Below are positions 5,350 through 14,868 of a DNA stretch of 19,006 nucleotides, piece after piece. The DNA is from Candidatus Sigynarchaeum calidifontis. GTDB lineage: Archaea > Asgardarchaeota > Lokiarchaeia > Sigyniarchaeales > Sigyniarchaeaceae. A program made the position numbers and the translations under genes. The notes below the pieces were generated by a model, which did not search any database, was not told the DNA's origin, and saw only the letters and a list, made by a program, of their open reading frames with translations. Location of the stretch: NCBI GenBank assembly GCA_030587475.2, contig JAUQYZ020000017.1, positions 1-19,006 on the forward strand, written 5' to 3'. Numbering within the stretch: the stretch's first letter is position 1; each line of letters begins with the position of its first letter.

Positions 5350-5847
5350 ATGAAGGTGGCGAGTAGCTTCAAGAAAGTGAAGGACGCTTTCGTGCGGTTT
5401 TTCGAAGCGATCGCCGCCTTTTTCAAGAACTTGTTCAAGAAAAGAAGTGACGACAAAATGGGAGAAAACCCGGATTTCGACGAGGATTTGGGACCGCCAG
5501 CAGAGGAACCCGCGGCACCCAAACCCGTTTCGAGCAAGACCCCCGCCGGCACTGCGCCGAGGTCGATCGCGTCGAAGACACCCGCCGCAAGTGGTGGTAA
5601 AGATGTCTCCGTTTATTTTCAATCAACCATCGGGCCAGGCGAGAAGAAACAGAAGCTGCTCGTGAATACCGGCAATCAAGTTGGCGCCATCAAGCAGACG
5701 GTTGGCAACATGTTCGGCTTGGACCCGAACGATTTCCATCTCTCGCATGGTGGTGTCACGTTGGACGAGGGAGCCCCCTTGAGCAATTACAACGTGAACG
5801 ACGGGGACACCTTGCTGCTCATCCCGGCAAGCACCGCGGGCATGTAG
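5350..5847 (+). CDS. Ubiquitin-like modifier with N-terminal amphipathic helix and disordered linker; C-terminus IPASTAG-M
   Basis: The C-terminal ~80 aa align by eye with ubiquitin (DFHLSHGGVTLDEGAPLSNYNVNDGDTLLLI vs [31 protein letters not shown]). First gene of the E1-E2-JAMM-RING operon. Confidence 0.88.
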   Translation: MKVASSFKKVKDAFVRFFEAIAAFFKNLFKKRSDDKMGENPDFDEDLGPPAEEPAAPKPVSSKTPAGTAPRSIASKTPAASGGKDVSVYFQSTIGPGEKKQKLLVNTGNQVGAIKQTVGNMFGLDPNDFHLSHGGVTLDEGAPLSNYNVNDGDTLLLIPASTAGM

Positions 5848-5869
5848 AATCTCTCCGATCATTGCGGGG

Positions 5870-5893
5870 AAAAAAGACTCTTGTCTTTTTTTT
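5870..5893 (+). terminator. Inverted repeat with T-run between the Ubl and E1 genes (possible terminator/attenuator)
   Basis: AAAAAAGAC-TCTT-GTCTTTTTT perfect 9-bp stem ending in a T8 tract. Confidence 0.45.
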
Positions 5894-5912
5894 ATTCAAA
5901 TCATGACGGAGA

Positions 5913-7142
5913 ATGACGAACGTGGATAAATCCGATTTCTTCAACACGGAGCTGACGGAAAAGGAACGGGAACTGTACAACAGGCAATTCCGGTACGAAG
6001 GGTGGAACCAGTCCATCCTCAAGCGAGCCAGGGTGCTCGTCGCCGGCGTCGGCGGGCTCGGGTGCGAGATCGCCAAGAACCTGGCCATGGTAGGCATCGG
6101 CCATATCGACCTGGTCGATCTCGATGTCATCGAACATTCGAACTTGAACCGCCAGTTCCTGTTCCTCGAGGCGAACATCGGGGCGCCGAAGGCGACCGTC
6201 GCCGCCGAGAAGCTGCGGGGGATCAACCCCACGATCGAGATCACGGGCCATCACTCTGCGCTCGAGCGGCTCGACCCGGACATCTACCGGCGGGCGGACG
6301 TGCTGGTCGGGGGGCTCGATTCCGTCCTGGCACGCCAAAACCTGAATGCCCAGGCCATCCGCTTCAGGAAACCGCTCGTCGACGGCGGCGTCGGCGGGTA
6401 CAATGGCCACGTCTACACGATCATGCCGTACGAGAACGCTTGTTACGAGTGCCAGCCACATCCATCCGGCCCGAGCGACGAGATGGCCGCGTGCACCGTC
6501 GTCGGCGTGCCCCGCAAGCGCGTGCATTGCGTTTTCAAGGGAAACATGCTATTTCAAGACACGTTCAAGCACGACCCCGACCCGAAAAAGCTCGATGACG
6601 TGGAATTCGTGCGGAAAGAGGCAAACCGGCTCGCCCGCGAGTATAATTTTCTCCCGGAATTTTCCACGGGGGATGTCGTGAAGGTCCTCGACCGCCACGA
6701 CCCGGGCCTCATCACGATCAACGCGGTCATCTCGGCAATCCAATCGCACGAGGTGATCAAGATCGTGAACTGGAAGGCCGGGAACAAGGCGCTGGGAGAA
6801 CCGATGAAAACGTACCTGATATTCAACGGCATGACCATGAAGTTCTATTATATCGAGAAACCTCGAAACCCGGCTTGCCCGCAATGCGGCGACAACGTCA
6901 AGCGCGTGGGCATCGAGCTTGCGAGCACCGATCCTTGCCAGAAAATCATCGACATGCTGGTGGCAATGGGATTTAAAACGAGCCCGGACATGGAGCCGGT
7001 GCTCACGATGAACGATTTCAAGGGCGTCCGGGTGCTCGACTCGGAAAAGTCCGTCGCGGAGAACGAGCTGCGAACCTACGACCTCATCACCGTGGCCGGC
7101 TTCGCGGACGGGGAAGTGTTTATTACCTTGAAGATAAAGTGA
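5913..7142 (+). CDS. Ubiquitin-like activating enzyme E1 (ThiF/UBA3-like, with catalytic Cys and probable C-terminal ubiquitin-fold domain)
   Basis: YNRQ, VAGVGGLGCE, DLDVIEHSNLNRQFLF, Zn pairs CYEC and CPQC, catalytic-Cys motif MAACTV, and an ~80 aa C-terminal domain ending EVFITLKIK. Confidence 0.95.
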   Translation: MTNVDKSDFFNTELTEKERELYNRQFRYEGWNQSILKRARVLVAGVGGLGCEIAKNLAMVGIGHIDLVDLDVIEHSNLNRQFLFLEANIGAPKATVAAEKLRGINPTIEITGHHSALERLDPDIYRRADVLVGGLDSVLARQNLNAQAIRFRKPLVDGGVGGYNGHVYTIMPYENACYECQPHPSGPSDEMAACTVVGVPRKRVHCVFKGNMLFQDTFKHDPDPKKLDDVEFVRKEANRLAREYNFLPEFSTGDVVKVLDRHDPGLITINAVISAIQSHEVIKIVNWKAGNKALGEPMKTYLIFNGMTMKFYYIEKPRNPACPQCGDNVKRVGIELASTDPCQKIIDMLVAMGFKTSPDMEPVLTMNDFKGVRVLDSEKSVAENELRTYDLITVAGFADGEVFITLKIK

Positions 7143-7195
7143 AACAATAATAAAAACCGACGCGATTCAAGAACAAAGACCAGAAGTGAAAAAAC

Positions 7196-7723
7196 ATGAG
7201 CTTGAGAACCACCAGGATCTCGCAAGATTTTGCAGCGTTGAAGAAAATGCTGAGCGAGGGAACCATCGTCCAGCTGAAAGGATTCGACAAGGATAGCAAG
7301 TCGATCGACCACCTTGCGGTGACGCTCGTCGGGCCAAAGGGAACGGCGTACCAAGGCGGCTTGTTCAAGCTGGAGATCAAGTTCCCGCCAGATTACCCCC
7401 AGCAACCACCCTTCGTGCGCCTGCATACCCCGATCTGGCATCCAAACTTTTGGCCGAAGCCATCCGAGTTTCCAGGCCAGCGGAACATCTGCCTGGCACT
7501 CGTCGACCCCTCGCTGGTCGGGACAAAAGGCGGGTGGAGCCCATCCAAGACCATCGTGACCGTCGTCCAGGCGATTATTGCCATGCTGAACACCAAGGGC
7601 CAGTACATCAACCCGACGGACGTGTTCAACAAGAAAGCAGCCGAGGAAATGCTTAGGGATCCGAAATCGTTTGACGAGAAGTGCAGGCAATTGACGAAGA
7701 AATACGCCACGGAAAAATGGTAA
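7196..7723 (+). CDS. Ubiquitin-conjugating enzyme E2 (UBC fold)
   Basis: GPKGTAYQGGLFKLEIKFPPDYPQQPPFVRLHTPIWHPN...ICL...WSPSKTIVTVVQAIIAML; HPN motif and catalytic Cys intact. Confidence 0.96.
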   Translation: MSLRTTRISQDFAALKKMLSEGTIVQLKGFDKDSKSIDHLAVTLVGPKGTAYQGGLFKLEIKFPPDYPQQPPFVRLHTPIWHPNFWPKPSEFPGQRNICLALVDPSLVGTKGGWSPSKTIVTVVQAIIAMLNTKGQYINPTDVFNKKAAEEMLRDPKSFDEKCRQLTKKYATEKW

Positions 7724-8574
7724 TGGTAATGGACATGGCAGAACAGCGAGACGGGGCTGGTAGCAAGGAGGATGCCCGGGAGCGCAAGCTCAAGGAAGAC
7801 TTGAAGCAAGAGCTGAAGGTCGAGCTTTTAAAGGAGATCTATGCCGAGCTGAAATCCGAGAAATCCGAGAAGGTCGACGTGGCAACGACGACGAAGGACA
7901 CGGTACTGCACATCAAGGAACACTTGCCCAAGATGGAAGTCCCTCCAGCAACACCGATTGCAGTGGCTGCTCCTTCAACGTCTTCCACTCCAGCCACGCC
8001 TTCCCCGCCTCAGGAACGCATCACGTTGACCGCGAAGGTGTTTCTCAAGATTGCCGCCCACGCGCTGAAATACGCTAACAACGGTATCCCCCGGGAGAAA
8101 TGGGTGGAGGTCATCGGCTTGCTTGCCGGAAAGCTCGACAACAACGGGGCCGTGCTGCACGTTGAGGACGCCTACCCGATGGGGCATGGAAATGCTGTTT
8201 ACGCCGAGATCAAGGAATACAAGAACTTTGTTCGTGCTTACAACGATTTGCGAGGACAAGGGCTCTTTGTTGCGGGTTGGTATCATTCTCATCCTGCGTA
8301 TGGCCTGTTCTTGAGCGACGAGGATATGGGCACGCAGGCCCGCTACCAGAAATTATGGGACAAGTCCATCGCCCTCGTCATCGACCCGTACCAGATCAAC
8401 GGCACCTCGTTCGGGTTCAACATCTTCAGAGCGAATTTAAAAACGAGGAAATGGTTCCCCGTGCCGTTTTCCTTCAAGAACGAGCTGGACACGAAAGTAA
8501 TCCCGGAACTGGTCGAATTCATCAATCCTATCGTGGATGGGAAGGCGCTTTTCATGGAATACGACCAGGGGTAG
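7723..8574 (+). CDS. JAMM/MPN+ metallo-isopeptidase (Rpn11/CSN5-like) with N-terminal extension
   Basis: EVIGLL and GWYHSHPAYGLFLSDED (E...HxH-x7-S-x2-D), then TQARYQ and ALVIDP. Start uncertain: in-frame ATGs at 7717, 7723, 7729 and 7735; 7723 overlaps the E2 stop (TAATG). Confidence 0.93.
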   Translation: MVMDMAEQRDGAGSKEDARERKLKEDLKQELKVELLKEIYAELKSEKSEKVDVATTTKDTVLHIKEHLPKMEVPPATPIAVAAPSTSSTPATPSPPQERITLTAKVFLKIAAHALKYANNGIPREKWVEVIGLLAGKLDNNGAVLHVEDAYPMGHGNAVYAEIKEYKNFVRAYNDLRGQGLFVAGWYHSHPAYGLFLSDEDMGTQARYQKLWDKSIALVIDPYQINGTSFGFNIFRANLKTRKWFPVPFSFKNELDTKVIPELVEFINPIVDGKALFMEYDQG

Positions 8575-8577
8575 AAC

Positions 8578-9714
8578 ATGGCACGTTTACGATGGTTCCA
8601 TTACTTGATCGTCCTTCTCATTTTCCTGGTTCTCGCAGTCCTGGCTGGCGTCCCCCTGGAACCCCCAGCAACGAACGATTTCTGGTCGTGGATGCTCGTC
8701 GGCGCCTGGACCATGCTCGGCATGAAGCTCGCCGACAGCGCCGCCTACCTGCGCTCGTTCAACTCGATGCAGAACCACGCGCTGTTCGTGTTCTGGACAA
8801 ACTTCGCCGCCCTCGTCTTCGGTGCATGGGGCAACTTCACGACCATCCCGTATCTCGCCGAGCCGGTCGTGGAAGTGCCCGCCGGCTGGATCGTGGTGAA
8901 CTGGTGGTCGCTGCTCTTTTCGGTCCCGTACTTCCTTTATGGAACCTACGCGATTCACGCGTGCTTCCGCCGGTACTTCTACGTGTACATCTTTGGAAAA
9001 TCGGTGAACTCCAAGAAATTCGGCGTCTTCGTCGTCGTGTTCGATGTCGTCTTTGAAGCATTGTACCTCGCGTTTTTATTTTTCTGGTTCGGCTCCGTGG
9101 ATGCCCCGCTCGACCTCGTCTCCCGGCACGTGGACCCGGCCGGGATCCTGTTCTTGCTCGTGTCCATCATCATCGCGGCCAGGTACGGGCGGTCGCCGTC
9201 GATCCCCGACATCAGCGCCCCGCTGCCCTCGCCCGTCCGGGCACGTCCCAGGCCGCAACCGGCCGCGCCGGAGCCCGTCCAGCGCGTTGCCCAGCCCGTT
9301 GCCCAGCCCGTTGCCCAGCCCGCACGGCCCGTCCAACCGGCCAGGAGCTGGGACGCGGGCGTGGCGCGGCGGGTGAGCGTGCGGGTGGCCGCGCCGGAGG
9401 CGGTCCGCGTCGAGCGGGTCAACATCGACGAGTTGCGCCCGAAAGGCAGCGTGCTCTCGAAGGAAGACTTCAAGTGCATTTTTTGCTTCAATTTATTCAA
9501 GAGCCCGGACGATGACAACCGGGGGGTCGTGATCTGCCCGTCATGCCGCCATCCGGCACACGCTGACGAGTTCCGGGAGTGGGCGCGGAATTCGAGCTTG
9601 TGCTCCCGCTGCGACGCCAAACTCCCCGAAAATTTCCGGAAAAGGCCGCGGATCGTGAGCGTGAAGGTGTACCTGGACGGGATGAAGCGTTTATCGAGCC
9701 AGATCAAGGGCTGA
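8578..9714 (+). CDS. Polytopic membrane protein (~6 TM) with Pro-rich linker and C-terminal RING-like zinc finger; putative E3 ligase
   Basis: Six hydrophobic segments in the first ~200 aa, then CIFC-x16-CPSCRHPAHADEFREW-x6-CSRC at 9475-9612 with the conserved RING Trp. Last gene of the Ubl-E1-E2-JAMM operon. Confidence 0.82.
   Translation: MARLRWFHYLIVLLIFLVLAVLAGVPLEPPATNDFWSWMLVGAWTMLGMKLADSAAYLRSFNSMQNHALFVFWTNFAALVFGAWGNFTTIPYLAEPVVEVPAGWIVVNWWSLLFSVPYFLYGTYAIHACFRRYFYVYIFGKSVNSKKFGVFVVVFDVVFEALYLAFLFFWFGSVDAPLDLVSRHVDPAGILFLLVSIIIAARYGRSPSIPDISAPLPSPVRARPRPQPAAPEPVQRVAQPVAQPVAQPARPVQPARSWDAGVARRVSVRVAAPEAVRVERVNIDELRPKGSVLSKEDFKCIFCFNLFKSPDDDNRGVVICPSCRHPAHADEFREWARNSSLCSRCDAKLPENFRKRPRIVSVKVYLDGMKRLSSQIKG
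9286..9322 (+). repeat. 12-bp tandem repeat x3 (GTTGCCCAGCCC) encoding VAQP repeats in the E3 linker
   Basis: Three perfect copies directly visible. Confidence 0.9.
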
Positions 9715-11448
9715 TCGGCACCAGATACCCGACTTGCCAGCTGTGCTCGCCGGGATGATCAATATCGTGTCCCCATTTTCCACGTGGTACACCTTGATGG
9801 CACGGTTCTCGTCCATGGTAATCCCGCCGTAGACCAGGTGAAAGTCGGGAGGGAAAAGGCCAAAAATGTTGCCCACCGTATGCTTCAAACTCTCGATTTG
9901 CACGTTTTTATCTATTTCCAACTCTATTTGCTTCTCTCCGGGGCCTATCGTAGCTTGGAAAAAAACTTTAATGGTTTCTGTCTTGGAAACAGGCGTCTTG
10001 CTCGTGATCGCGATGCCGGCGCTATTTTCGGGCGTTTTCGCCCGTGGGGTCGCGGGGGGCACGCCGGCCATGGCTCCTGGCTGGCCCGCGGGCGCCGGCT
10101 CGGGCGTGGACGTGGCCGGGCCAGCAGGTGCGGACGTGACGCTGCTGCCGGGCTCTGCGTCCTTCTTGGGCCTGATCGAGAACGCGAACGTCTTGGCGAG
10201 CTCGTCGTAGAAGCGCCAGAGCTGCAGCAGGCTGGTGGCCTTCAAGTAATCCCCGCGGCCGATATCCCGCCCGAGCTTTTCCATGAGCAAGTCGTCCGCC
10301 TCCCCTAGGCCGATTGTGTAGATCACGACGCCTTCCTTCGTGAGGAATTCCCTCGCGACCGGGATGGGGTTCACGGGTATGCCGCTGGCCTCGTCGCCCT
10401 TGTTCGGGTTCCCGTCGCTGAGGAGGATGATCATGGTCGGGTCGGGCTTGCCCGTGCGTGGATTGACAGGAAATTGCGCGATTTGCTCCGCCGCGATCTT
10501 CAGCGCCACGCTCATCGCGGTCAAGCCGACCGCTTTCTTGGTTTTCTCCGTGATGTAGTATGCTAGCGTGTTCAAGTTCAAGTCTCGCAGCTTCCCGCTG
10601 CATTGTATCACGGGGGACAAGACCCCGTTGGTGTCCTCCATCTCGAGCACCTCAACCTCGTCGCCGAACGCGATGACTTGCACGTTCTCGCCGAGGCCAC
10701 GCTTGGCCTTGAGGCTCAAGTAAAGCAGCGATGCAGCCGCCGCGCTCGCGATGCGTGAGACGGTCGCCCCGTCCTGGAACTGGTTAAAGAACTCCTCCAG
10801 GTGGGATGCCATGGCATACTCGCCCTTCAGATAATCGATGATGCTGCTAACATCTTGCACGACGAAGTCCTCGCTGAGCATGGATCCCGAAACGTCGATG
10901 CACAAGATCGTGTTGAACCCCATCTCCTTGGCGGGCACGAGGTCGAACAAGATCTCCATGCCCGAGCTGTCGACGACGGCGACATCCCCGTCGCCGATCG
11001 ACGGGTTCGTGTCGATGATTTTCAATCGCAGCGGGCAGATCTCGGCATCTTTCCACTCGAGCTCCATGCCCTTGAACACCGGGCGGCGCTTCAGCAATTT
11101 CTGGATGCCGCTCACGTGCTCGGACACCCAGACGATGGCAGATTCGATGGGCACCTTGCCTTGCGAGTCGACCGAGATTTGCAGTTCCGTGATGCCGCCC
11201 CGTGTCGCGATCTTCCGGATGTCGACATCGGGCGAGCCGCCCATCTCCAACGAGGCGATGATCTCCTCGTCGACCACCATGGTACCGGGCGAGCAATCGT
11301 CGTCCGACACGACTTGCATGGCTGTCTTGATGCGTCCATCATCGCTCGGGATCACGACGACGTCAAAATCCTCCAATTTTCGGGTCTCCATGTCCTGGCG
11401 GTTCAGCTTGGCTTGGCCGCCCATGTGTCCTCCATTGATGAGCTGCAT
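9691..11448 (-). CDS. Cdc48/p97 N-domain-like + VWA (MIDAS) + linker + C-terminal ubiquitin-like domain protein
   Basis: The N-terminus resembles the archaeal Cdc48 N domain (GQAKLNRQDMETRKLEDFDVVVI...PGTMVVDEEIIASLEM...VDIRK; LKRRPVFKGMEL...LRLKIIDTNP). VWA motifs LCIDVSGSM, VIAFGD, GLTAMSVAL, ILLSDG and IYTIGLG. The C-terminal Ubl (9736-9966) is 43/77 identical by hand count to the free Ubl. Confidence 0.85.
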   Translation of the reverse strand: MQLINGGHMGGQAKLNRQDMETRKLEDFDVVVIPSDDGRIKTAMQVVSDDDCSPGTMVVDEEIIASLEMGGSPDVDIRKIATRGGITELQISVDSQGKVPIESAIVWVSEHVSGIQKLLKRRPVFKGMELEWKDAEICPLRLKIIDTNPSIGDGDVAVVDSSGMEILFDLVPAKEMGFNTILCIDVSGSMLSEDFVVQDVSSIIDYLKGEYAMASHLEEFFNQFQDGATVSRIASAAAASLLYLSLKAKRGLGENVQVIAFGDEVEVLEMEDTNGVLSPVIQCSGKLRDLNLNTLAYYITEKTKKAVGLTAMSVALKIAAEQIAQFPVNPRTGKPDPTMIILLSDGNPNKGDEASGIPVNPIPVAREFLTKEGVVIYTIGLGEADDLLMEKLGRDIGRGDYLKATSLLQLWRFYDELAKTFAFSIRPKKDAEPGSSVTSAPAGPATSTPEPAPAGQPGAMAGVPPATPRAKTPENSAGIAITSKTPVSKTETIKVFFQATIGPGEKQIELEIDKNVQIESLKHTVGNIFGLFPPDFHLVYGGITMDENRAIKVYHVENGDTILIIPASTAGKSGIWCRSALDLAR

Positions 11449-11454
11449 GGTCGA

Positions 11455-12573
11455 TCACGTGGGATGCTTGGTGCGAATCGAGTCCGAAGGCGCCTTCTCC
11501 CGTATCGCCCGCTTCTCCAGGTCGCCCCGGTACTTGTCGAGCGCGTCCCGCTCTTTCCGCAATTTCTCGTATTCCTTCTGGAGGCCATCCCGGTCTCGGT
11601 TGAATTTCTCCCGCTCCCGGTCGAGGTTATCGCGATCCCGCTGGATGTTATTTATTTCCTTCTGGGCGTCCTTCAATTCCCGGTTCTTCCGCGCGATCTC
11701 GTCATCCAAGGCATCGCGTTTTCTCGAGAGCGCGGGTATCTCGTCGTTGATACGCCGCAACTCGTCCCGTGCCTTGTCTTTTCGCCTCTCCAGGTCGTCG
11801 ATCTCGTTCTTGAGATGCTTCACCTTGTCCTGGTACCTTTCTATCTCGTTATCGAGGTCCCGCTTTTTTCTCTCGAGCTGCTTCTCGGCCTCGTCGACCC
11901 GCCTCGCCCGGCGATCGAGATCTTCCTCCATGTCACGGAGCTTGCGCTTGGCATCCTCGAGTTGCTTGCTGTTCCTCGCGAGGTCTTGCTTTTCCTTCTC
12001 GATCTGGCGCTGGACATCGGCGAGGTCGTCCTTGAGCTGCTTGTTGCGGTTGGCGAGTGCCTCGTTCTCGGCCGCGAGATTTTTTTTCCACTTCTCGAGC
12101 CCCTCTTGCTCGTTGCGCAGCACCCGGATGCGCCCCTCGCGCTCCTCCTTCTCGCTCTTGTATTTTTGCACGTCGTCGATCAGCTTGTTAACTTCTTGAT
12201 CGAGTCTTTTTTTATCTTCCCGGAGGTCCTCGATATCCTTTTCCATGATGCGCGATGCTTGTCTCTTCCGCTCGAGCTCGCGTTCCTCGTTCGCGATGAG
12301 CTTGCGCACGCCGCCGAGGTCGTTGGTGGCCTTCTCTTTCTCCTTGAGCAAGGCCTTGATCTCGTCCTCCTTTTCCTTCCGGCTGGCTTCCAGCTGCGCG
12401 ATGACATTCTTGTGGTCCTCGATGCGCTTCAAGATCTTCTCCCATTCCCGCCGCTCGCGTTCTAGCTTTGCACGCTCCTCTTCCATCCGGCGAGTCGCTT
12501 CATCTGGCTCTACAGCGTCGCCGGGTGTCTTGCTGGAGACTTGAAACTTCGGAGGGGGCTTGTTTGACATCAT
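11455..12573 (-). CDS. Long coiled-coil protein, unknown function
   Basis: About 340 aa of nearly uninterrupted E/K/R/D/L-rich heptads, no TM and no globular domain. Ends 6 nt before the VWA-Ubl gene. Start at ATG 12573 or 12570, or GTG 12576. Confidence 0.85.
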   Translation of the reverse strand: MMSNKPPPKFQVSSKTPGDAVEPDEATRRMEEERAKLERERREWEKILKRIEDHKNVIAQLEASRKEKEDEIKALLKEKEKATNDLGGVRKLIANEERELERKRQASRIMEKDIEDLREDKKRLDQEVNKLIDDVQKYKSEKEEREGRIRVLRNEQEGLEKWKKNLAAENEALANRNKQLKDDLADVQRQIEKEKQDLARNSKQLEDAKRKLRDMEEDLDRRARRVDEAEKQLERKKRDLDNEIERYQDKVKHLKNEIDDLERRKDKARDELRRINDEIPALSRKRDALDDEIARKNRELKDAQKEINNIQRDRDNLDREREKFNRDRDGLQKEYEKLRKERDALDKYRGDLEKRAIREKAPSDSIRTKHPT

Positions 12574-12735
12574 CACACCTTCATGAAACGCGTGAATGGC
12601 CTAGCCGGAATCCGGGACATCGGCGGGAATCGAGATCCTTAGTTCTTGTAGGTTTTTAGCCTAATAAATCATGCTCGCTTGCCGCGATGACTTTCAAGAC
12701 GAATGGAATGGTGGGGAAATAAAAAAAAAACAAGT

Positions 12736-13983
12736 CTATTCCATCGTTAGCCCGTAATAGATGCCGATCACGAAGAATGATGCCAGCGAATTTGCGAGAA
12801 ACTGCGGGTTGAAGAAATTACGCAGCAACAAGATCGACATGAAAGTTACGAGCAAGGAAACCAGGATGATGATCGCCTTTTTCCGCAAGATGCCCGTGGA
12901 CTGCCTCGCGACCTTGATGTAGGTGAGGACAATGTTCACCCCGACCAGGCCAAGGGCGACGACCCACACGTAAATGATCACGCCGAGCACGTCTTTCAAG
13001 CCCGGCGCGACCAGTAACACGAAAGCGAACACGATGATGAGCACCTCGGTGATCAACAGGAAGAAAGTCAGGTACGGGATTTTTTTGTTCTGGATATCCT
13101 TCTCGATCGTGTTGCTCATGAACATGAGGCTGCTACCGAGACATATGAATGTTAAAAATGTCAGCACGTTAGTCGTGAGAATCCCACCGAGCACCCATGT
13201 CGGCATGGCATTGAACGCCATGATGCCCGACCAGTCAAACGCAGGATCGAGGGCGCTCCAAAATGCCGAGAATTGCCAGGCGAACATGCCGATGCCACCC
13301 GCGATCAAGCCCCACGCGTAGTTCATGTACGAGTGCGCTTTCCCCTGTCGATCGGGATTTTTCCGCTCCTTCATTGCCTTGTACAAGAGCATGAACCCGA
13401 AGATGAAAAACATCATGTAAACGAGATTGAAAAAGACCGTCTCCATGGCATCGACGACGGGATTCCCCGTTCTCCACTTGAAAGAATACTGGGTGAGGGA
13501 GTCCAGCTCGTTCACGATCACGATGTAGAACACCATGGTGTAGAGCGGCTTCCCCTCCTTGTCGACCGTCGTGAAGTTCTCCATGCCCCAGTCCATCTTG
13601 AAATGCTGGTACGTGAGGTTGGTCTCAATGATGGACGTCTGGTGGGCCCAGGTTTTTTTCGGCACGAATTGCGACGAGTTCCAGTTCGAATTCAAGCCCT
13701 TGACCATCTCGGTCTCGTTGACGGCGTAGACCGACACCTTCTGTGTCGACCGGATCACCATGACATTCGTATCCGGCGTCAGCGTTATCCTCACTGGCGG
13801 GCCCGGCGGTTTCCCGTCCCACGTTTCGGCCAGGCGCTGCACGACGATGGCGGAGTTGGTCTGGCCTTTCGGGGCCAGATCCCCCCGGATCTCGTCCAAA
13901 GCTGCGACATTTTGCGCGATAAAAAAGAAAACAATGAAACCCGTGCATAGAATGAGCGCACGGGACCGGTTCGTGATTTTCAT
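12736..13983 (-). CDS. Membrane protein: signal peptide, ~150 aa extracellular domain, seven TM helices, no cytoplasmic output domain
   Basis: N-terminal hydrophobic stretch ending in VAA, a soluble beta-rich region with several NxS/T sequons (NET, NSS, NLT, NFT), then seven hydrophobic segments to the C-terminus. Confidence 0.75.
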   Translation of the reverse strand: MKITNRSRALILCTGFIVFFFIAQNVAALDEIRGDLAPKGQTNSAIVVQRLAETWDGKPPGPPVRITLTPDTNVMVIRSTQKVSVYAVNETEMVKGLNSNWNSSQFVPKKTWAHQTSIIETNLTYQHFKMDWGMENFTTVDKEGKPLYTMVFYIVIVNELDSLTQYSFKWRTGNPVVDAMETVFFNLVYMMFFIFGFMLLYKAMKERKNPDRQGKAHSYMNYAWGLIAGGIGMFAWQFSAFWSALDPAFDWSGIMAFNAMPTWVLGGILTTNVLTFLTFICLGSSLMFMSNTIEKDIQNKKIPYLTFFLLITEVLIIVFAFVLLVAPGLKDVLGVIIYVWVVALGLVGVNIVLTYIKVARQSTGILRKKAIIILVSLLVTFMSILLLRNFFNPQFLANSLASFFVIGIYYGLTME

Positions 13984-14201
13984 GTCGTTCCCTTTTCTTT
14001 GCCGTTATGTCTGGTTCATCAATTGAGAAATCGGTAGATAATTGTGAAAACGGGTAAATAAAAAGTCGCGCGATTCTCATTCGTTGGGATGGCGATGAGC
14101 CGCATCGTCTATCGAAGGAATTTACGAGGTATTTCCAAACTTAATTAAATCTCGCTTCACGGGTAACAACACAATATATTCCTAGATTCGAGCTGCAACC
14201 T

Positions 14202-14669
14202 ATGTCTTCCTCCACAGAGGCTATCACTTACCGGGTGAACATTTCGAGCAAAAACCGGAACGTGCAAATCACGATCGAGCCGCAAAAATTCATGAACGCG
14301 TTCCTCGGCAAAAAAATCGGGGATACCGTGAACGGCGGCCTCTTCGGATACGAGGGGTACGAGTTCACGATAACGGGCGGTTGTGACACGGCCGGTTTTC
14401 CGATGCGGAAGGACGTGCAAGGCGGCGTCAAGAAACGAATACTCGTCGGAAAGCCGAGTACCGGCATCAAGGCCAAGCGTTTCAACGAAGGTGATCGCAT
14501 CCGCATCCTCGTGCGAGGCAACACGGTCACCGACCAGATCGTGATGGTGAATTGCGTGGTATCGAAGGAAGGCAAGGTGAAACTCTTCGTGCCCAAGGAG
14601 GGCGATGCCGCCGCGCCCGCGGCCGAGGGTGACGAGAAAGACAAGGGCAAGAAAAAGAAAGAGAAATAA
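14202..14669 (+). CDS. rps6e: 30S ribosomal protein eS6
   Basis: FLGKKIGDTVNG, GYEFTITGGCDTAGFPMRKDVQG and VRGN motifs of S6e. Confidence 0.96.
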   Translation: MSSSTEAITYRVNISSKNRNVQITIEPQKFMNAFLGKKIGDTVNGGLFGYEGYEFTITGGCDTAGFPMRKDVQGGVKKRILVGKPSTGIKAKRFNEGDRIRILVRGNTVTDQIVMVNCVVSKEGKVKLFVPKEGDAAAPAAEGDEKDKGKKKKEK

Positions 14670-14685
14670 TAAAGGCGAATGACCC

Positions 14686-14868
14686 ATGGTAAAGAAACAA
14701 GTTTGCTCGTTTTGCCGGAATGAGATAGAATTTGGGCGAGGAACGATGCGCATCCTGAACGACGGCACGATCTTGGTTTTTTGCAGTGTCAAATGCAAGA
14801 CAGCAATGATAGAGCATAAAAAGAACCCGCGCAAGACGAAATGGACGCGCATCTACGGAACGGACTGA
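14686..14868 (+). CDS. rpl24e: 50S ribosomal protein eL24
   Basis: CSFC...GRGTMRILNDGTILVFCSVKC...KNPRKTKWT. Confidence 0.97.
   Translation: MVKKQVCSFCRNEIEFGRGTMRILNDGTILVFCSVKCKTAMIEHKKNPRKTKWTRIYGTD

What the first reader, a model, noticed from the sequence alone, without database searches (positions are those of the whole stretch)
5527..12540. Recurrent linear motif [IV]-[SAT]-S-K-T-P in three proteins of the locus: candidate conjugation acceptor site
Seen: VSSKTP (5527-5544, K63) and IASKTP (5566-5583, K76) in the free-Ubl linker; ITSKTP (9991-10008) plus a weaker RAKTP just before the fused Ubl; VSSKTP (12523-12540) in the disordered N-terminus of the otherwise unrelated coiled-coil protein. 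I did not find SKTP in the other proteins I annotated. The Ubl has V and D at the positions aligning with ubiquitin K48 and K63. Established: SUMO2/3 forms chains through a consensus Lys in a disordered N-terminal extension. Inference: SKTP is the acceptor-lysine consensus, allowing Ubl chains and making the coiled-coil protein a dedicated substrate. It could instead be a docking motif or a Thr-Pro phosphosite.
Basis: partly seen in the sequence, partly recalled or inferred. Interest (0 to 1): 0.8.

Follow-up and report, generated by a model that had tools for sequence, protein, structure and literature searches.

The report
Conserved Lys-x-Pro motif, Asgard ubiquitin-like module
In an Asgard archaeon (Sigynarchaeum), a ubiquitin-like tag and the proteins encoded beside it share a short lysine-x-proline motif in their floppy ends; its lysine is never swapped for arginine across about nine Asgard families, so it most likely marks where the tag is attached, though nobody has tested this.

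Summary
The four hexamers sit exactly where stated. All four genome-wide matches to [IV][SAT]SKTP lie in these three proteins (0.38 expected).

The window is from an Asgard archaeon (97% match to Ca. Sigynarchaeum springense). It carries Ubl, E1, E2, a JAMM protease and a membrane RING-H2-like E3, plus a vWA-Ubl fusion and a coiled-coil protein.

The motif recurs across about nine Asgard families, including cultured Ca. Lokiarchaeum ossiferum:
- Every Ubl examined with a recognisable core carries it in its N-terminal extension, usually twice.
- The neighbouring protein carries clusters at both ends. It is a coiled coil in Loki-type lineages and a Lys/Pro-rich disordered protein elsewhere.

The core is K-x-P. 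K and P are invariant. T is replaced by K, V, I or A, and R never replaces K in the Ubl extensions or coiled-coil ends.

This disfavours a Thr-Pro phosphosite. It fits a SUMO-like acceptor-lysine consensus (my best reading, about 0.5), but a docking motif is not excluded (about 0.28). No direct evidence of conjugation exists.

This scan reached the same reading on at least six other genomes. I found no paper describing the motif.

The parts
5350..5847 (+). Free Ubl precursor (165 aa). It has an N-terminal amphipathic helix (res 3-34), a disordered extension (res 35-84), a ubiquitin fold (res 85-160), and the tail ...IPASTAG followed by Met.
   Evidence: Pfam ubiquitin PF00240, E 9e-6. AlphaFold2 secondary structure and pLDDT. 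722 homologues, best hit 97% to Ca. Sigynarchaeum springense.
5476..5490 (+). Acidic F-D-E-D-L motif in the Ubl extension (F43-L47). This is a second conserved short motif, found only in the Ubl.
   Evidence: D44, E45 and L47 are at least 90% conserved in alignment A1 of 50 homologues. The same pattern is seen in all orthologues printed.
5527..5544 (+). Motif copy 1 in the Ubl extension: V-S-S-K63-T-P.
   Evidence: K63 is at least 90% conserved and P65 is invariant in A1.
5566..5583 (+). Motif copy 2 in the Ubl extension: I-A-S-K76-T-P, nine residues before strand 1 of the Ubl fold.
   Evidence: K76 and P78 are invariant in A1; T77 is not.
5913..7142 (+). E1-like activating enzyme (ThiF family).
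   Evidence: Pfam ThiF, E 3e-58. Orthologues at 54-87% identity in the same order and 40-44% in other Asgard families.
7196..7723 (+). E2 (UQ_con) with HPN...C99 and two conserved insertions flanking the catalytic Cys.
   Evidence: Pfam UQ_con, E 3e-26. The closest solved E2s are Ubc15, UBE2R2, UBE2T and UBE2G1; the alignment shows a 7-residue insertion between HPN and Cys and a loop after Cys. These loops are invariant or nearly so in 26 orthologues.
7681..8574 (+). JAMM/MPN (Rpn11-like) protease, the probable Ubl tail-processing and deconjugating enzyme. Its start codon is uncertain: the GTG at 7681 overlaps the E2 gene.
   Evidence: Pfam JAB, E 6e-14. Orthologue alignments begin at query residue 19 or later.
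8578..9714 (+). Polytopic membrane protein with a Pro-rich linker and a C-terminal RING-H2-like zinc finger; the probable E3.
   Evidence: Sequence. A profile of 21 orthologous C-termini hits RING fingers: RNF24 at E 5.6e-6, then RNF165, RNF4, RNF38, and Hrd1 weakly. C31, C34, C51, C54, H59, C73 and C76 are invariant, with Glu at the ligand-6 position.
9691..11448 (-). vWA-Ubl fusion (585 aa). It has an N-terminal domain, a vWA domain with an intact DxSxS MIDAS site, a linker, and a Ubl ending STAG followed by a 14-residue tail.
   Evidence: Pfam VWA and ubiquitin. The orthologue in the same genus is 78% identical.
10030..10047 (-). Weaker motif copy in the vWA-Ubl linker: P-R-A-K471-T-P.
   Evidence: It is kept as K-A-K-T-P in the same-genus orthologue.
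9991..10008 (-). Motif copy in the vWA-Ubl linker: I-T-S-K484-T-P, ten residues before the Ubl fold.
   Evidence: It is kept as I-A-S-K-T-P in the same-genus orthologue.
11455..12576 (-). Coiled-coil protein (373 aa) with short disordered ends that carry the motif; the candidate dedicated partner or substrate.
   Evidence: Pfam gives only generic coiled-coil hits below threshold. Orthologues sit next to a Ubl gene in families f1, f2, f3, f4 and f18, with KTP repeats at both ends.
12553..12570 (-). Degenerate N-terminal copy in the coiled-coil protein: S-N-K6-P-P. The same-genus orthologue has D-K-T-P-P here.
12523..12540 (-). N-terminal motif copy in the coiled-coil protein: V-S-S-K16-T-P.
   Evidence: It lies in the conserved context K-x-P-P-K-[YF]-x-[IV]-x-x-K-T-P in orthologues.
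11461..11505 (-). Two degenerate C-terminal copies in the coiled-coil protein: I-R-E-K361-A-P and I-R-T-K370-H-P-T-stop.
   Evidence: Orthologues end in I-[KR]-[ST]-K-T-P-x repeats, for example IKSKTPGIRSKTPGW-stop.

Best explanation
The motif is best written hydrophobic-x-[S/x]-K-[T/K/V/I]-P and has an invariant K-x-P core. I read it as the preferred acceptor-lysine consensus of this Asgard ubiquitin-like conjugation module.

Proposed path (inferred, not shown):
1. The JAMM protease trims the Ubl to ...STAG.
2. The E1 activates the Ubl and passes it to the E2.
3. The E2, helped by the membrane RING E3, transfers the Ubl onto motif lysines that sit in disordered segments.

Two such lysines lie in the Ubl's own N-terminal extension. 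That would allow chains through the tail, as SUMO2/3 does through K11. Further copies lie at both ends of the coiled-coil protein and in the vWA-Ubl linker, which would make those proteins dedicated substrates.

Shown here: the motif, its placement in disordered segments, its conservation, its restriction to this locus, and the strict use of Lys. Inferred: that the lysine is conjugated, and that the E2 or E3 reads the motif.
For: 1. Specificity. All 4 genome-wide [IV][SAT]SKTP matches are in this locus. K[TV]P pairs are almost confined to it. Across 41 related genomes, in-frame hits of a 3xKTP DNA pattern fall almost only on the coiled-coil or Ubl genes of this module.

2. Conservation.
- 120 of 120 best Ubl homologues carry K.P in the N-extension, and 109 of them carry KTP.
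- In alignment A1, K76, P78 and P65 are invariant and K63 is at least 90% conserved.
- All 95 Ubl ORFs from 78 GTDB species loci carry at least one K.P, and 85 carry exactly two.
- The same holds in distant Asgard families where the E1 is only 40-44% identical.

3. Lys is never Arg.
- Ubl extensions: 258 K.P against 0 R.P. Shuffled sequences give a mean of 61 K.P and a maximum of 81.
- Coiled-coil ends: 55 K.P against 0 R.P, although those ends hold 126 Arg and 236 Lys.
- Ends of the disordered partner proteins: 92 K.P against 2 R.P.

4. The partner's ends are conserved while its middle is not. The middle is a coiled coil in Loki-type families and a Lys/Pro-rich disordered chain in f7, f16 and f24.

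5. The motif lies in disorder, with no docking back onto the Ubl fold in the model.

6. The membrane Ubl-domain proteins of family f4 lack a terminal Gly and also lack a conserved copy of the motif.

7. The E2 has conserved insertions on both sides of the catalytic Cys. Its nearest solved relatives are loop-bearing E2s of the UBE2R/UBE2G/Ubc15 type. From general knowledge, in Cdc34 and UBE2G2 that loop helps choose the acceptor lysine.

8. Precedent. SUMO2/3 K11 lies in a consensus in the flexible N-terminal tail and is read by UBC9 (PMC4869838).
Against: No experiment or structural model shows conjugation at these lysines.

RING-dependent ubiquitin-type E2s usually have no linear consensus.

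The ends and extensions hold other lysines, so a consensus is not obviously needed.

In families f7, f16 and f24 the copies repeat every five residues, (K-x-P-x-x)n. That spacing looks as much like a multivalent binding or structural repeat as like separate acceptor sites.

One Gly-ended Ubl paralogue (L113:9005-9376) and the ATPase-Ubl fusion of family f18 lack the motif or nearly so.

The RING E3 has no evident substrate-binding domain, so the motif could be its docking site and not the modified residue.
Confidence: 0.5

Rival explanations
1. The motif is a docking motif only. K-x-P would be a short linear motif bound non-covalently by one conserved component: the RING E3, the E2 backside, the JAMM protease, the E1, or the Ubl fold itself. 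The Ubl and its partner would then be recruited to the same site, and any modified lysine would lie elsewhere.
For: The motif is conserved, sits in disorder, and comes in tandem multivalent copies at both ends of a rod or flexible spacer. Five-residue spacing in some lineages suits rebinding and avidity. The E3 has no other obvious substrate-recognition domain.
Against: Arg never replaces Lys in the 313 K.P sites of the Ubl extensions and coiled-coil ends, even where Arg is abundant next to the motif. A purely electrostatic or pocket contact would be expected to tolerate Arg at least sometimes. No receptor has been identified. The AlphaFold2 model shows no docking of the tail onto the Ubl fold of the same chain.
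Confidence: 0.28
2. The motif has a function unrelated to the Ubl. The Lys/Pro repeats would be basic, polyproline-II-like segments that bind a polyanion such as an acidic membrane, nucleic acid or a filament. Alternatively, the lysine would carry another modification such as methylation or acetylation.
For: The partner proteins in f7, f16 and f24 are very basic, Lys/Pro-rich and disordered, somewhat like histone H1 tails. The module is membrane-associated: it has a polytopic E3, and in this genus the Ubl has an amphipathic helix.
Against: The Ubl extension that carries the motif is net acidic. Polyanion binding would tolerate Arg, which is never seen. The motif is tied to Ubl genes and their neighbours and is not spread through the proteome. 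No lysine-modifying enzyme other than the E1/E2/E3 set is conserved in the module.
Confidence: 0.1
3. The motif is a proline-directed Thr-Pro phosphorylation site, like the KSP and KTP repeats of neurofilaments and tau.
For: Thr-Pro is present in 74% of copies, and the copies are tandem and lie in disorder.
Against: Thr is replaced by K (13%), and by Q, I, V and A. Whole clades close to this genome use SKKP, and other lineages use KIP, KVP, KYP or KLP, while K and P stay invariant. Ser almost never replaces Thr: KSP occurs 2 times against 188 KTP. No kinase is conserved in the module.
Confidence: 0.03

Closest known systems
[quoted passage not shown]
   Same: A short lysine-centred motif lies in the modifier's own disordered N-terminal tail and in substrates. 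One Ubl paralogue without the motif would resemble SUMO1 acting as a chain terminator.
   Different: The consensus is K-x-P with a hydrophobic residue at -3, not psi-K-x-[DE]. The E2 is not Ubc9-like; its nearest solved relatives are Ubc15, UBE2R, UBE2T and UBE2G. The Ubl ends in a single Gly (STAG). No conjugation has been shown.
Caldiarchaeum subterraneum E1/E2/small-RING/Rpn11 ubiquitin operon (PMC5654768), and the Helarchaeial E1/E2/RING cascade that modifies K201 of UEV-Vps23 (bioRxiv 10.1101/2023.07.25.550441)
   Same: An archaeal, eukaryote-like operon with Ub, E1, E2, RING and a JAMM protease, and a pro-Ubl whose tail needs trimming. In the Helarchaeial case the substrate is encoded in the same operon.
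   Different: Here the E3 is a polytopic membrane protein. The Ubl has a long N-terminal extension with two conserved motifs and ends in STAG, not GG. The linked partner is a protein with K-x-P repeats. A term search of the Helarchaeial preprint returned no mention of such a motif; I did not open the Caldiarchaeum paper beyond its abstract.
Cdc34/UBE2R and UBE2G2 E2s, with a loop inserted next to the active site
   Same: The E2 here has an insertion after the catalytic Cys at the same place.
   Different: It also has an extra 7-residue insertion between HPN and Cys, and its loop is not acidic. The idea that the loops read K-x-P is inference only.
Neurofilament KSP repeats and tau KTP sites (proline-directed phosphosites)
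   Same: Tandem K-[ST]-P repeats in disordered ends of coiled-coil proteins.
   Different: Here Thr is dispensable, Ser is almost never used, and Lys and Pro are invariant.

Membership tests
Eukaryote-like archaeal ubiquitin cascade (Ubl, E1, E2, RING E3, JAMM) | A ubiquitin-fold modifier with a C-terminal Gly that processing can expose | tested here: met
   Pfam ubiquitin. AlphaFold2 beta-grasp fold with pLDDT about 90 or more. Ubiquitin G76 aligns with G164. Tails after Gly vary among homologues, and 40 of 120 have none.
Eukaryote-like archaeal ubiquitin cascade (Ubl, E1, E2, RING E3, JAMM) | A ThiF-type E1, a UQ_con E2 with HPN and a catalytic Cys, and a JAB/MPN protease | tested here: met
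   All three are above Pfam gathering thresholds. HPN and C99 are invariant in 26 orthologues.
Eukaryote-like archaeal ubiquitin cascade (Ubl, E1, E2, RING E3, JAMM) | A RING-type E3 with eight zinc ligands | tested here: inconclusive
   The profile hits RING-H2 fingers, with RNF24 at E 5.6e-6. Seven Cys/His are invariant, but Glu sits at the ligand-6 position and there is a spare Cys. Zinc binding and E3 activity are untested.
SUMO-type consensus acceptor site | The sequence psi-K-x-[D/E] | tested here: not met
   The consensus here is [IV]-x-S-K-[TK]-P-A, with Pro and no acid at +2.
SUMO-type consensus acceptor site | A consensus lysine in the disordered N-terminal tail of the modifier | tested here: met
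   K63 and K76 lie in a segment with pLDDT 45-54 just before the fold and are conserved.
SUMO-type consensus acceptor site | An isopeptide bond formed at the motif lysine, with the motif read directly by the E2 | not testable with these tools
   This needs reconstitution and mass spectrometry.
Proline-directed [ST]-P phosphosite | A Ser or Thr before Pro that is conserved and interchangeable | tested here: not met
   Thr is present in 74% of copies and is replaced by K, Q, I, V or A. KSP occurs 2 times against 188 KTP.
Conserved short linear motif (generic) | Lies in disorder, is conserved beyond its flanks, and recurs in unrelated proteins | tested here: met
   (observed 258 against a shuffled mean of 61). 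It recurs in the Ubl, the coiled-coil protein, the disordered partner protein and the vWA-Ubl fusion.

The most novel reading that the evidence does not exclude
K-x-P is a true attachment code for an Asgard ubiquitin-like system, read by its loop-bearing E2 or its membrane RING E3. The Ubl carries one donor Gly and two acceptor lysines, and its partner carries acceptor clusters at both ends of a long rod or flexible spacer. The module would therefore build covalently cross-linked Ubl-partner polymers or meshes at the membrane. That would be a structural use of ubiquitin-like conjugation, and it would give the first natural consensus and substrate for an archaeal ubiquitin-type cascade.
Probability: 0.15. 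Interest if true: 0.9.

Novelty: new variant of a known kind. Interest (0 to 1): 0.7.

Why it matters
The natural targets and site rules of archaeal ubiquitin-type systems are largely unknown. These systems are the closest prokaryotic relatives of eukaryotic ubiquitin and SUMO signalling.

A lysine-strict motif that is shared by the modifier's tail and by a genomically linked partner, and that is kept across much of the Asgard archaea, gives a concrete hypothesis. A handful of recombinant proteins and peptides would test it. The module is also present in a cultured species, Ca. Lokiarchaeum ossiferum, so proteomics is possible.

If the reading holds, consensus-directed conjugation and chains through the modifier's tail would predate eukaryotes or have arisen in parallel. 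The result would also name the first dedicated substrate family of this module.

Tried and rejected
1. Complex prediction of the E2 (26-row alignment) with Ubl residues 48-90 (50-row alignment) gave no answer: score 0.06 against a mark of 0.32, and the controls were not run. This is neither support nor evidence against binding.

2. I asked whether the tail docks back onto the Ubl fold of the same chain. The AlphaFold2 model leaves residues 35-84 disordered, so there is no sign of docking.

3. I looked for other proteins with KTP repeats in this genome. Only two turned up: an IleRS N-terminal Lys/Pro/Gln-rich extension (C210) and a HEAT/TPR protein linker (C140). Both are low-complexity and lack the hydrophobic residue at -3, so I judged them unrelated.

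4. Hits of the 3xKTP pattern away from the module in relatives are simple Lys/Pro linkers: a CheR-like protein, an RNA polymerase subunit tail, and others. Their number is about that of the reversed-pattern control.

5. I rejected a DNA-level repeat or gene conversion as the cause, because the codons differ between copies.

6. I tried to use the roughly 580-aa Ubl fusions of family f18 as vWA-Ubl orthologues. They turned out to have a P-loop ATPase N-terminus, so I dropped the alignment and did not fold the vWA-Ubl protein.

7. Three literature searches found papers on the Asgard and Caldiarchaeum ubiquitin cascades, and none of the listed titles or abstracts describes this motif. I term-searched only one of them (the Helarchaeial preprint) for related wording, without a hit.

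8. The ORF at 14157-14852 (minus strand), first taken as a module gene, is spurious. It is antisense to ribosomal protein S6e. The membrane protein at 12736-13983 is absent from the same-genus locus and is not counted as part of the module.

Full report
**What is in the window**

The window is contig C26 of a 4.99-Mb, 89%-complete assembly. The free Ubl is 97% identical to a protein named from Candidatus Sigynarchaeum springense. Neighbouring genes such as aIF5B and ribosomal protein S6e fit an archaeon.

The locus holds a plus-strand operon:
- Ubl, 5350-5847
- ThiF-type E1, 5913-7142
- UQ_con E2, 7196-7723
- JAB/MPN protease, 7681-8574
- a polytopic membrane protein with a C-terminal RING-H2-like finger, 8578-9714

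Converging on it from the minus strand are a vWA-Ubl fusion (9691-11448) and a coiled-coil protein (11455-12576).

**The observation**

All four hexamers are at the stated coordinates. I also found degenerate copies in the coiled-coil protein: NKPP near its N-terminus, and IREKAP and IRTKHP at its extreme C-terminus.

I tested chance on a crude proteome of the whole assembly (4,429 ORFs, 1.51 M residues):
- Plain SKTP is at background (12 seen, 13.6 expected), but four of the twelve are in these three proteins.
- All four genome-wide matches to [IV][SAT]SKTP are here, against about 0.38 expected.
- Only four proteins have two K[TV]P within 25 residues. Two are in this locus; the other two are low-complexity linkers.

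The copies use different codons, so the likeness is at protein level. The AlphaFold2 model of the Ubl, built on a 50-sequence alignment, gives a helix at residues 3-34, a disordered segment at 35-84 (pLDDT 45-54) that holds both motifs, and a confident ubiquitin fold at 85-160. An ungapped alignment to ubiquitin puts V136 and D151 at the K48 and K63 positions and G164 at G76.

**Conservation in relatives**

The E1 has orthologues at 54-87% identity in most genomes of the same order. The gene set Ubl-E1-E2-JAB-membrane RING is kept there.

Every Ubl orthologue has an N-terminal extension built the same way. An acidic [DE]-F-[DE]-[DE]-L motif comes first, and then usually two copies of hydrophobic-x-S-K-T-P just before the fold.
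- Among the best 120 of 722 database homologues, 109 have KTP in the extension. The other 11 have SKKP, SKVP or SKAP.
- In a 50-sequence alignment, K76, P78 and P65 are invariant and K63 is at least 90% conserved; the Thr is neither.
- Over 246 K.P sites, position -3 is I or V, -1 is S (62%), +1 is T (74%) or K (13%), and +3 is A (55%).
- A scan of one genome per GTDB species found 288 relatives. In the 78 loci kept, all 95 Ubl ORFs have at least one K.P in the last 45 residues before the fold. Eighty-five have exactly two, and there is a single R.P.
- These loci include the cultured Ca. Lokiarchaeum ossiferum Loki-B35 (CP104013.1).

**The partner protein**

In families f2 and f3 the coiled-coil protein is the divergent neighbour of the Ubl gene. 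In family f4 it sits next to a second Ubl paralogue that itself carries three KTP copies.

Its orthologues carry one to five copies at the N-terminus and one to three at the extreme C-terminus, for example IKSKTPGIRSKTPGW-stop. The motif therefore marks both ends of the rod.

A DNA pattern for three KTP within short spacing, run over 41 related genomes, hit in frame almost only these coiled-coil and Ubl genes. The remaining hits were simple Lys/Pro linkers, about as many as a reversed-pattern control gave.

In more distant Asgard families (f7, f16, f24; E1 40-44% identical) the same five enzyme and modifier genes are present, and the Ubl tail still reads [IV]-x-S-K-T-P-x-x-S-K-T-P. The neighbouring protein there is different. 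It is a 155-290-residue Lys/Pro-rich disordered protein with (K-x-P-x-x)n clusters at both ends. The ends are kept while the middle is exchanged, which places the function in the K-x-P clusters.

**Which residues matter**

Lys is never replaced by Arg in the Ubl extensions or coiled-coil ends:
- Ubl extensions: 258 K.P against 0 R.P. Shuffled sequences give a mean of 61 K.P and a maximum of 81.
- Coiled-coil ends: 55 K.P against 0 R.P, although those ends contain 126 Arg and 236 Lys, and Arg often sits two residues before the Lys.
- Ends of the disordered partner proteins: 92 K.P against 2 R.P.

Related sequences are not independent, so these counts overstate significance. Even so, the pattern holds across about nine families.

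Thr is dispensable. A clade close to this genome uses SKKP, and others use KIP, KVP, KYP or KLP. Ser almost never replaces Thr (2 KSP against 188 KTP). That argues against a proline-directed phosphosite.

**Mechanism**

The simplest account of one Lys-strict motif shared by the modifier's tail and by its linked partner is that both are acceptors for the Ubl. This works like the SUMO system. There, UBC9 reads psi-K-x-E, and SUMO2/3 forms chains through K11 in its flexible N-terminal tail (PMC4869838).

Other features fit this reading:
- The E2 has two conserved insertions flanking its catalytic Cys, and its nearest solved relatives are loop-bearing E2s.
- The membrane Ubl-domain proteins of family f4 have no terminal Gly and lack a conserved copy of the motif.

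None of this shows conjugation. A docking motif for the RING E3 or another component remains a serious rival, and the five-residue tandem spacing in some lineages fits it well. The two readings can also both be true if the motif docks in the E2 or E3 active-site region. One structure-prediction attempt on the E2 with the Ubl tail gave no answer and counts neither way.

**What is particular to this genome**

- The Sigynarchaeum lineage adds an N-terminal amphipathic helix to the Ubl. It is conserved in the closest homologues and has pLDDT 73-90.
- The lineage has a vWA-Ubl fusion that keeps two motif copies in its linker, both here and in the same-genus genome.
- The coiled-coil gene lies downstream and convergent here. 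In most relatives it is divergent from the Ubl gene.
- Its C-terminal copies have decayed to KAP and KHP but keep K and P.

**Comparison with what is known**

Archaeal E1/E2/RING cascades have been reconstituted for Caldiarchaeum (PMC5654768). A Helarchaeial cascade modifies UEV-Vps23 (bioRxiv 10.1101/2023.07.25.550441).

In three literature searches, none of the listed titles or abstracts describes this motif or the partner protein, and a term search of the Helarchaeial preprint found no related wording. The held library is incomplete, so this is absence of a find, not proof.

This scan's own earlier follow-ups on at least six other Asgard genomes reached the same reading. They are AI notes and not independent evidence.

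**Verdict**

The phosphosite alternative is disfavoured, an acceptor-lysine consensus is my best reading (about 0.5), and a pure docking motif is next (about 0.28).

I class it as a new variant of a known kind: consensus-directed ubiquitin-like conjugation with a different code, in Asgard archaea. It is directly testable in vitro and in a cultured species.

Noticed in passing
window 14157-14852 (-) and 14202-14669 (+): The 231-aa minus-strand ORF looks like a gene next to the module and is 59% conserved in the same-genus genome. It is spurious. The plus-strand ORF inside it is ribosomal protein S6e (Pfam E 1.4e-28).
   Followed up: yes
window 5476-5490 (+): A second conserved short motif, [DE]-F-[DE]-[DE]-L, opens every Ubl N-terminal extension (D44, E45 and L47 at least 90% conserved). 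It is absent from the partner proteins. Its role is unknown; it could be an E1, E2 or E3 handle, or an acidic counterpart to the basic partner ends.
   Followed up: partly
window 5356-5451 (+): An amphipathic helix (residues 3-34, pLDDT 73-90) sits ahead of the Ubl extension. It is conserved in the closest homologues (P0010-12, P0014, P0015) and absent from the other lineages sampled.
   Followed up: partly
L119:11072-12814 (-), L120:1910-3718 (+): In family f18 the large Ubl fusion next to the module has a P-loop (GxSGSGKT) ATPase N-terminus where this genome has a vWA domain. Its linker has lost the motif or nearly so. Different large domains have therefore been fused to a conjugatable Ubl.
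   Followed up: partly
L021:7139-7927 (+) and 13 similar loci (family f4): Membrane proteins of about 265 aa carry a C-terminal Ubl domain that ends ...IPSRKEKN, with no terminal Gly and no KTP. They lie between the two Ubl genes of the module.
   Followed up: no
L060:1488-2645 (-), L038:13827-14855 (+) and other coiled-coil orthologues: Within the rod, short breaks of the form [KR]-K-I-P-x-x-E-[KR] recur one to three times, for example IKTKIPGMERR and NRKIPSAENR. The window's protein has DEIPALSRKR at the matching place, with E where the relatives have K.
   Followed up: no
window 7441-7510 (+), E2 residues 82-105: The E2 has a 7-residue insertion between HPN and the catalytic Cys and a further loop after it (HPNFWPKPSEFPGQRNIC...DPSLVGTKGGW). 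Both are invariant or nearly so in 26 orthologues.
   Followed up: partly
window 7681-7723 (+): The JAB ORF, if it starts at the GTG at 7681, overlaps the E2 gene by 43 bases. Orthologue alignments start at residue 19 or later, so the true start is probably one of the ATGs a little further downstream.
   Followed up: no
G000 contig C210:4572-6113 (+): Isoleucyl-tRNA synthetase has an N-terminal Lys/Pro/Gln-rich extension of about 50 residues with QKTP, QKAP and SKAP repeats. It lacks the hydrophobic residue at -3 and is probably an unrelated basic appendage.
   Followed up: partly
G011 (4.4 Mb, one contig) and G021, same order: Two closed genomes of the same order have no orthologue of this module's E1 (best E about 1e-40, a different ThiF protein) and no 3xKTP hits. 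The module is therefore not universal in the order.
   Followed up: partly
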